The notes below the pieces were generated by a model, which was given only the letters and a program-made list of their open reading frames with translations, searched no databases and was not told the DNA's origin. Both the position numbers and the translations under genes were made by a program. DNA of 64,000 nucleotides from Octopus vulgaris (Eukaryota), in assembly GCA_951406725.2 (NCBI GenBank), contig OX597829.1:8122001-8186000 (forward strand). The letters are read 5' to 3'. This document shows positions 18,330-19,168 of the stretch, piece by piece (within the stretch, counting starts at the first letter, position 1; each line of letters starts with the position of its first letter).

Positions 18330-19168
18330 AACAAAGGGTAAAATTAATTAATTAAGAATTAATCAATAATTTCACCAAGTAGAATTCGGCATGAAAAAAG
18401 GACCATTTCACGGTAAACTTAAGTAATACTTAATAATTAGGGTTCAGCAAAGATTTGCTTTACCACACACCGAAGTTTAGAAATAGCAGCCAAAACCTTA
18501 GCTATTTCTTCTACTTTAAAATGGGACTTCCAGAGAAACTTGAAGACAATCCACACAGGCAGAGAGGAAAGTAACGAAAATCAATCAATATCTGGTCATC
18601 CATGGACGCGCGTTTCGGAATTAGATCGGTATAAAGAATATAGAATTATACTTTACCAACCATTTTCCTCATCAGCATGGCATTCCTCAATAATTAAATA
18701 TTGAAATATTAAATTCGAGGGTACTGGAATAATTACACTTAACTCTCCACCTAACGGTATCAGACAGATCATATTCAGTGTTAGTACCGCCGAATTCAAA
18801 ATATGAATGAGGTTCATTTACCCTCCCCTGCCTATCCGCGTGCGTCTTCAAGTAAAATACTACAGAAAAAACCTGTAGTTTGTTATCAGGGAGAAAATTC
18901 GACATGAAAAAAGGACCATTTCACGGTAAACTTAAGTAATACTTAATAATTAGGGTTCAGCAAAAATTTGCTTTACAGCGTCCATGGATGACCAGATATT
19001 GATTGATTTTCGTTACTTTCCTTTCTGCCTGTGTGGATGGTCTTCAAGTATTTTGGTTTCTCTGGGAGTCCCTTTTTAAAGTAGAAGAAATAGCTAAGGC
19101 TTTGGCTGCTATTTCTAAACTTCGGTATGTGGTAAAGCAAATCTTTGCTGAACCCTAATTATTAAGTA
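18330..19168 (-). mobile_element. Non-coding HHR retroelement: about 513-nt terminally redundant unit plus inverted copy
   Basis: Direct repeat 18383-18462 / 18896-18976; inverted copy 18978-19168 of about 18426-18609; HHR at 18600-18680; (TA)n on both sides. Confidence 0.8.
18600..18680 (-). ncRNA. Type I hammerhead ribozyme with long stem II
   Basis: Minus strand CCATG-CTGATGA-GGAA[hairpin]TTCC-GAAACGCGCGTC-CATGG; 5-bp stem I, intact core, palindromic stem III, GUC site. Confidence 0.92.

What the first reader, a model, noticed from the sequence alone, without database searches (positions are those of the whole stretch)
18330..19168. About 513-nt non-coding HHR unit with terminal redundancy and an inversion starting at the cleavage site
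Seen: on the minus strand the insert begins with about 80 nt (18976-18896) that recur 513 nt later (18462-18383), and it contains a textbook HHR. It is abutted by an inverted copy beginning GCGTC|CATGG, within 5 nt of the scissile bond. There is no credible ORF. Established: retrozymes propagate via HHR-processed circular RNAs, and PLEs make direct and inverted pLTRs. Inference: a retrozyme-like or mini-PLE element copied more than once around its template, with the inverted strand delimited by the ribozyme cut.
Basis: partly seen in the sequence, partly recalled or inferred. Interest (0 to 1): 0.75.

Follow-up and report, generated by a model that had tools for sequence, protein, structure and literature searches.

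The report
Penelope-mobilised hammerhead mini-element, 590-nt unit
This is one copy of a widespread protein-free jumping repeat that carries a predicted self-cutting RNA motif and was likely pasted into AT repeats by a Penelope-type enzyme, a known kind of element; its 513-letter spacing is a one-off deletion of a roughly 590-letter unit, and the inverted copy starting near the cut site is likely chance.

Summary
The sequence is as described: an 81-nt direct repeat 513 nt apart, a complete type I hammerhead (HHR), a 93%-identical inverted arm starting 5 nt before the scissile bond, no credible ORF. Two inferences fail. The family (535 exact 30-mer hits) has a unit of about 590 nt; 513 comes from a ~71-nt deletion seen once in the genome. 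Arm starts do not pile up at the HHR cut (3 of 50 passing arms stop within 10 nt, 5.4 expected, none at the bond). Instead, 249 of 275 arms have one of two fixed outer ends 100 nt apart, mostly in (TA)n; 80 of 102 two-armed insertions pair one of each. This is the Penelope-like element (PLE) footprint of two internal priming sites and a 'tail', here 100 nt instead of 30-40. The HHR core is conserved (1.7% versus 7.8% changes). No coding partner was found in 120 PLE loci. Verdict: a non-autonomous, PLE-mobilised, retrozyme-like element; circular RNA untested; this locus has one HHR and cannot excise a monomer alone. This scan already noted 360-, 485- and 490-nt families with this footprint elsewhere in the genome.

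The parts
18325..18976 (-). Long arm: about 1.1 units, running from the outer end (site B) back through the HHR and the head-to-tail junction into a second round
18325..18426 (-). About 100-nt 'tail' between the two fixed outer ends (site A near 18427, site B at 18325); holds a strong AU-rich hairpin
18600..18680 (-). Type I hammerhead ribozyme with long stem II and 2-bp palindromic stem III; predicted cut between 18605 and 18604 after GUC
18896..18900 (-). 5-nt microhomology at the ~71-nt deletion (most of the tail plus the first bases of the next unit) that turns a ~585-nt unit into the 513 spacing; private to this copy
18896..18976 (-). Second-round remnant (the 81-nt terminal redundancy); contains no HHR
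18978..19169 (+). Inverted short arm: from 5 nt upstream of the HHR cut to the fixed outer end site A; shares 6 subfamily variants with the long arm
18131..18324 (.). TA-rich microsatellite target, left flank
19170..19283 (.). (TA)n microsatellite target, right flank; a target-site duplication cannot be resolved inside it

Best explanation
The insert is one copy of a dispersed, protein-free repeat family with a unit of about 590 nt and a conserved type I hammerhead motif, likely mobilised in trans by a Penelope-like RT/GIY-YIG protein that would nick both strands of a (TA)n tract and likely prime two cDNAs at two fixed internal RNA sites 100 nt apart. Shown: family, unit length, two fixed outer ends, TA targets, head-to-head arms with variable inner ends, arms from one sequence lineage, copying across the HHR cut site. 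Inferred: the enzyme (PLE); the two outer ends as initiation sites, by analogy with the anole PLE in vitro; a template continuous across the cut, either an HHR-cleaved and re-ligated circle (favoured, since the HHR core is under selection and partial tandems keep being regenerated) or an uncleaved read-through transcript. In this copy one cDNA likely ran 1.1 times round, skipping the tail hairpin at a 5-nt microhomology, and the other stopped 5 nt past the scissile bond by chance before the two were joined.
For: 535 and 524 exact hits of two 30/33-mers, 0 for reversed controls. 176 distinct insertions: 102 two-armed tail-out, 71 single, 3 complex; 80 of 102 pair site A with site B; 249 of 275 arms end at A or B. 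TA repeats within 16 nt of 103 of 118 B ends and 73 of 81 A ends. Arms of one insertion differ by 4.4% against 9.0% between insertions (72 pairs, closer than the median in 70). Inner ends of the two arms coincide within 10 nt in 15 of 62 against 4.8 by permutation, p 5e-5, the junction palindromes noted for rotifer PLEs (PMC3846280, passages). HHR core changes 12/712 against 1764/22555 elsewhere, p 0.002; stem I C-G to U-A swap in 14 of 77 rows; a roughly 65-70% identical sister family keeps the core, both ends and the junction. Whole unit folds far better than shuffles (z -5.7, 0 of 100). Coding PLEs of this genome show the same two-ended TA footprint with a ~38-nt tail (4 of 16 listed ends carry it). 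PMC11167929 (parts 1-2 of 4 read): PLE protein cuts and extends both strands and starts at two internal sites that define the tail.
Against: No coding partner found: no pLTR homology in 120 PLE loci. No insertion among 176 has two full units (longest arm 898 nt) and only 2 carry two tandem HHRs (L024, L026), unlike classic retrozyme arrays. The two arms are as close as or closer than the nearest other copy in only 16 of 72 pairs, so 'same lineage' is shown but 'same RNA molecule' is not. In 42 of 77 HHR rows the first stem II pair is unpaired (mostly A-C), and stem III is 2 bp, so many copies may cleave poorly or only as dimers. PMC11167929 found HHR cleavage dispensable in vitro and unprocessed RNA the main substrate; 10.64898/2026.07.22.740005 saw cleavage in 1 of 9 tested elements. 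Covariation counts are not independent of descent.
Confidence: 0.8

Rival explanations
1. Same PLE mobilisation, but the template is an uncleaved linear read-through transcript of a partial-tandem locus; no RNA circle is involved and the HHR serves another step (5' end definition, turnover).
For: PMC11167929: HHR mutants insert as well as wild type, no reads ending at the cut. No array of two or more full units in 176 insertions, longest arm 898 nt, which a linear 1.5-mer could template.
Against: HHR core conserved across two families. A linear template can only give copies no longer than itself, yet 16 of 113 unbiased insertions still span the head-to-tail junction and 3 arms cross the cut twice. 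This rival shares all genomic predictions tested here with the circle model and is not excluded; it sits inside the 0.8 above.
Confidence: 0.35
2. The sequence is only the pLTR of a coding PLE whose full-length copies were missed; all sampled copies are 5'-truncated ends.
For: The footprint is that of PLE pLTRs (PMC8557442 passages). Only 120 of many thousand PLE loci were compared, from the best hits of four searches.
Against: After the outer end B the next sequence is either target DNA or position 1 of the same unit, and position 1 is preceded by end B, so the unit is closed on itself. PLE protein fragments lie in 5 of 120 family loci and 3 of 20 sister loci, none abutting the element.
Confidence: 0.1
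3. One reading: a 513-nt circle, with the inverted strand starting at the ribozyme cut because RT ran off a cleaved 5' end.
For: The window's arm does begin 5 nt from the bond, and the spacing is 513.
Against: The 513 junction is unique in the genome. 0 of 118 arms that reach the region stop at the bond; 8 stop within 10 nt against 9.1 expected. Run-off would leave no upstream GCGTC.
Confidence: 0.04
4. Non-PLE mobilisation (LINE twin priming, or a DNA rolling-circle route).
For: No PLE partner identified; LINE-like RT and Helitron-like fragments are in the window.
Against: Two fixed internal ends, overlapping arms, no poly(A), optional tail and TA targeting match PLEs; in LINE twin priming (recalled) the internal site varies and arms do not overlap.
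Confidence: 0.06

Closest known systems
Animal non-LTR retrozymes (Cervera and de la Pena 2020, PMC7229834: passages and Discussion read; Li, Clavereau and Pollet 2026, 10.64898/2026.07.22.740005: parts 1-3 of 5 read, supplements closed)
   Same: Non-coding, low-GC repeat with one type I HHR per unit, highly structured, short stem III as in the axolotl dimer-acting HHRs; PLE mobilisation proposed there.
   Different: Unit about 590 nt (150-450 in the 2020 paper, within 51-972 in the 2026 one); dispersed 0.1-1.5-unit insertions rather than dimers to multimers; stem II about 50 nt longer than the Rfam model; circular RNA not shown here; no homologous PLE pLTR found.
EN+ Penelope-like elements and their pLTR/tail footprint (Craig et al. 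2021, PMC8557442 passages; Arkhipova et al. 2013, PMC3846280 passages; Frangieh et al. 2024, PMC11167929 parts 1-2)
   Same: Partial tandems, inverted 5'-truncated arm, optional tail, junction palindromes, microsatellite targets, HHR upstream of the ends, two internal start sites.
   Different: No ORF; tail about 100 nt against 30-40 nt in print and about 38 nt in this genome's coding PLEs.
Non-autonomous Chlamys PLEs such as MRC1 (PMC8557442, passage)
   Same: Non-coding elements that form pLTRs and head-to-tail insertions with PLE machinery.
   Different: Those lack canonical HHRs and generally resemble their partner's 3' end; this one has an HHR and no partner was found.

Membership tests
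Animal non-LTR retrozyme | Type I HHR in each unit | tested here: met
   Window HHR complete; core intact in 52 of 65 copies not picked by an HHR pattern.
Animal non-LTR retrozyme | No protein; no LTR/PBS/PPT | tested here: met
   Longest ATG ORFs 34-72 aa in 4 copies; no PLE protein match to 52 unit segments at E below 0.3. PBS/PPT not searched.
Animal non-LTR retrozyme | Tandem organisation with two or more consecutive HHR-bearing units | tested here: inconclusive
   Not met at this locus (one HHR). In the family 2 of 176 insertions carry two tandem intact HHRs, none has two full units; the sample is a small part of the family. Hence filed as retrozyme-like, not as a proven retrozyme.
Animal non-LTR retrozyme | Expressed as monomeric linear and circular RNA; self-cleavage | not testable with these tools
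   No run on record as RNA holds it and only contigs were available.
Animal non-LTR retrozyme | Homology to a PLE pLTR (Li et al.: 21 of 57 Xenopus families-level matches to PLEs) | tested here: inconclusive
   None in 120 PLE loci; most PLE families of the genome not sampled.
EN+ Penelope-like element (autonomous) | Single ORF with RT and GIY-YIG endonuclease | tested here: not met
   Unit closed on itself, no ORF contiguous.
PLE-mobilised insertion (footprint) | Partial tandem plus inverted 5'-truncated arm | tested here: met
   102 of 176 two-armed tail-out; 47 of 176 (16 of 113 unbiased) span the head-to-tail junction.
PLE-mobilised insertion (footprint) | Optional tail from two fixed start sites | tested here: met
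   118 arms end at site A and 131 at site B of 275; distance 100 nt, longer than the 30-40 nt in print.
PLE-mobilised insertion (footprint) | AT-rich or microsatellite target | tested here: met
   176 of 199 precisely ended arms abut TA repeats.

The most novel reading that the evidence does not exclude
A PLE protein dimer copies a single ~590-nt HHR-made RNA circle from both nicked DNA ends at once, starting at two AU-rich hairpin sites 100 nt apart (about three times the known tail), the hairpin at the second site forming only across the head-to-tail junction; the family then is a natural minimal substrate that maps PLE cis-signals, and half of its copies spread with an attenuated ribozyme (GUA triplet, A-C pair at the base of stem II) that would keep the circle closed.
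Probability: 0.3. Interest if true: 0.55.

Novelty: new member of a known kind. Interest (0 to 1): 0.3.

Why it matters
As a new family it is ordinary: animal retrozymes and their proposed PLE partners are in print, and this scan has noted several sibling families in the same genome. Its use is as a test set. Hundreds of insertions with two fixed ends let one test in genomic data the two-site internal priming seen in vitro for one PLE, show that the ribozyme cut does not delimit insertions, and extend the tail from 30-40 to 100 nt. Whether PLEs copy HHR-made circles or uncleaved transcripts is open; the two-HHR loci L024 and L026 give direct substrates for that test.

Tried and rejected
Whole-window Rfam scan: only microsatellite-driven miRNA noise among the 150 of 228 rows shown. 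Neighbouring PLE at 20199-22092 as partner: no unit homology in 30 loci of its family. GIY-YIG Pfam hits, the 48-kb PLE family and the 58-kb PLE family as partners: 3 of 90 loci had unit matches (L158, L177, L323); L177 was read and is a separate TA-bounded insertion of a diverged relative, L158 and L323 show the two-armed pattern and were not read base by base. L315 and L319, sister copies 320-430 nt downstream of decayed PLE ORFs: separated by unrelated DNA. A cluster of 6 arm starts 13 nt downstream of the cut was checked and sits at an ATAT stretch that matches the TA target or forms junction hairpins, so it is not read as an HHR effect. A guessed intron across the tail (GT donor near unit position 447, AG acceptor near 8): no such joint among the 8 listed in four contig sets; contigs cannot show absence. 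Expression: no RNA holder listed; four runs guessed to be RNA hold contigs over most of the unit, which is no evidence either way. A short resemblance between the unit's GCTGCTATTTCTAAACTTC stretch and the ends of coding PLE pLTRs did not score in nhmmer and is not used. Independent read support for the window's two junctions was not obtained, so an assembly error at the private deletion is not excluded. Literature: no paper on this or any cephalopod retrozyme family among the listings (one search returned shark papers).

Full report
Observation. The insert lies at 18325-19169 between TA-rich tracts. The 81-nt direct repeat (18383-18463, 18896-18976; 98%; spacing 513) and the 192-nt inverted arm (18978-19169; 93%) are real and match nothing else in the window. 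On the minus strand 18680-18600 reads as a type I hammerhead: 5-bp stem I, CUGAUGA, a long stem II, GAAA, a 2-bp stem III closed by palindromic GCGC, GUC; the cut would fall between 18605 and 18604. Rfam scores it at 19.3 bits, E 0.1, under the gathering score of 34. The inverted arm begins 5 nt upstream of the bond. The longest ATG ORF is 72 aa.

It is a large family. The genome is 2.8 Gb, probably a cephalopod (inferred from size, microsatellite load and earlier notes). The unit gave 2085 first-look candidates; two short exact words have 535 and 524 matches, reversed controls 0. Copies are a median 93% identical to the family majority (110 segments), so the true count is likely in the thousands (inference). 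I mapped 210 loci, which collapse to 179 insertions; three segmental duplicates were dropped by hand, leaving 176, of which 113 were picked by words that do not bias the inner junction. These words do favour copies that hold end B or the region just before end A.

The unit is about 590 nt, not 513. With a natural monomer as ruler (positions 1-592), position 592 is followed by target DNA or by position 1. Eighteen full units measure 563-598 nt, eleven of them 590-598. The window copy jumps from position ~534 to ~9 at a 5-nt microhomology, losing about 71 nt that include the strong tail hairpin. That junction has 1 exact match in the genome, the window itself; the intact junction has 39. The redundancy holds no HHR, so this locus cannot excise a monomer.

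The inversion point is not set by the ribozyme. Of 50 unbiased arm segments that reach 11 nt downstream of the cut, 3 stop within 10 nt of it (5.4 expected from the mean stop rate) and none at the bond; over all loci 8 of 118 (9.1 expected). One of 73 unbiased two-armed insertions, and 4 of 103 in all, has an arm start within 6 nt. 45 of 184 unbiased arms cross the site and 3 arms of 275 cross it twice. The window's arm keeps GCGTC from upstream of the bond, which run-off from a cleaved 5' end would not give. The template was therefore continuous at the cut.

What is fixed is the outer ends. Of 275 arms, 131 end at position ~592 (site B) and 118 at ~492 (site A), 26 elsewhere; 102 of 176 insertions are two arms head to head, 80 of them A plus B. 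TA repeats lie within 16 nt of 103 of 118 B ends and 73 of 81 A ends. Both sites lie at or beside short AU-rich hairpins, and the one at B needs the head-to-tail junction (the site A hairpin is weak, z -0.9 and 0.2). The arms of one insertion differ by 4.4% against 9.0% between insertions (72 pairs; closer than the median in 70, but as close as the nearest other copy in only 16) and share five times more derived variants; in the window they differ by 3.3% over 184 nt against a median of 8.5%. Their inner ends coincide within 10 nt in 15 of 62 cases against 4.8 by permutation (p 5e-5). A sister family, about 65-70% identical, keeps both ends, the junction and the HHR core.

The HHR is under selection, with caveats. 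Outside loci picked by an HHR word, the 11 core positions differ from the majority in 12 of 712 cells against 1764 of 22555 elsewhere (p 0.002 against random column sets); 52 of 65 cores are intact. In 77 aligned copies 92.9% of cells pair; stem I has a C-G to U-A swap in 14 rows, which may be one inherited event. The cleavage triplet is GUA in 45 and GUC in 41 of 92, and the first stem II pair is unpaired, mostly A-C, in 42 of 77; the window copy has G-C and GUC. The whole unit folds much better than shuffles (z -5.7, 0 of 100; three circular monomers z -4.8 to -5.7 on 15 shuffles each).

No coding partner was found. The PLE 1 kb away (RT at 20199-21116, GIY-YIG at 21220-22089) and three other PLE sets, 120 loci in all, show no pLTR homology to the unit. 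PLE protein fragments occur in 5 of the first 120 family loci (the later 90 were not tested) and 3 of 20 sister loci, none abutting the element. Coding PLEs here do share the footprint: an HHR-like motif, two TA-abutting ends, and a ~38-nt tail on 4 of 16 listed ends.

Mechanism. Frangieh et al. (PMC11167929, parts 1-2 of 4 read) show that a PLE protein cuts and extends both strands of AT-rich DNA and starts at two internal RNA sites that define the tail, with no need for HHR cleavage in vitro. Craig et al. (PMC8557442, passages) and Arkhipova et al. (PMC3846280, passages) describe partial tandems, inverted arms, 30-40-nt tails and junction palindromes. The family fits this with a 100-nt tail. 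I infer mobilisation in trans by a PLE (0.8). Whether the template is a re-ligated circle, as for coral, mussel and axolotl retrozymes (PMC7229834, passages and Discussion), or an uncleaved read-through RNA cannot be told from the genome; I favour the circle about 55 to 45. Against a textbook retrozyme, no insertion has two full units (longest arm 898 nt) and only L024 and L026 carry two tandem HHRs.

Novelty and score. Li et al. 2026 (10.64898/2026.07.22.740005, parts 1-3 of 5; supplements closed, and they might list related families) already argue that animal retrozymes are non-autonomous PLE derivatives, with units of 51-972 bp. No paper on this family appeared in six searches. Earlier unchecked notes of this scan describe 360-, 485- and 490-nt families with the same two-ended footprint in this genome; none matched this sequence. 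I had noted the two ends before reading them; the same-template test was prompted by them.

Noticed in passing
window 20199-22092 (+): PLE with RT and GIY-YIG in two frames; its family has many near-identical copies with open frames of about 776 aa, several as head-to-head pairs, so it looks recently active. TG-rich terminal repeats at about 19700-20200 and 23300-23900.
   Followed up: partly
window 48249-49230 (+): 3' end of a second PLE family (endonuclease region) with a minimal HHR-like motif in its pLTR and two alternative ends.
   Followed up: partly
window 56051-58484 (+): Decayed PLE of another clade with Asn/Thr-rich low-complexity inserts; very abundant family (182,482 first-look candidates); no HHR found by my scan in 30 loci.
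   Followed up: partly
window 24870-24975 (+): Another type I HHR with a long stem II in an unrelated AT-rich element; its downstream sequence resembles 17420-17560.
   Followed up: no
window 516-560 (+) and 32390-32455 (-): Two more hammerhead-like motifs; the second lies next to a 98-nt near-perfect hairpin at 32049-32146.
   Followed up: no
L302-L321: Older sister family, about 65-70% identical, with the same two ends about 98 nt apart and a conserved HHR core; 2318 first-look candidates.
   Followed up: partly
alignment A1: About half of the copies have a GUA triplet and an A-C mismatch at the base of stem II; 14 of 77 have lost two bases of the stem III palindrome.
   Followed up: partly
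L015, L017, L019, L023; L245, L246: Copies with shared flanks, i.e. multiplied by segmental duplication rather than transposition.
   Followed up: partly
window 8266-8922, 29183-29653, 34823-35281 (-), 46088-46534, 51818-52474, 60671-61063: Fragments that look like LINE RT, hAT-type and Mutator-type transposase, gypsy pol and Helitron helicase (only the first was scanned, RVT_1; the other labels are recalled).
   Followed up: no
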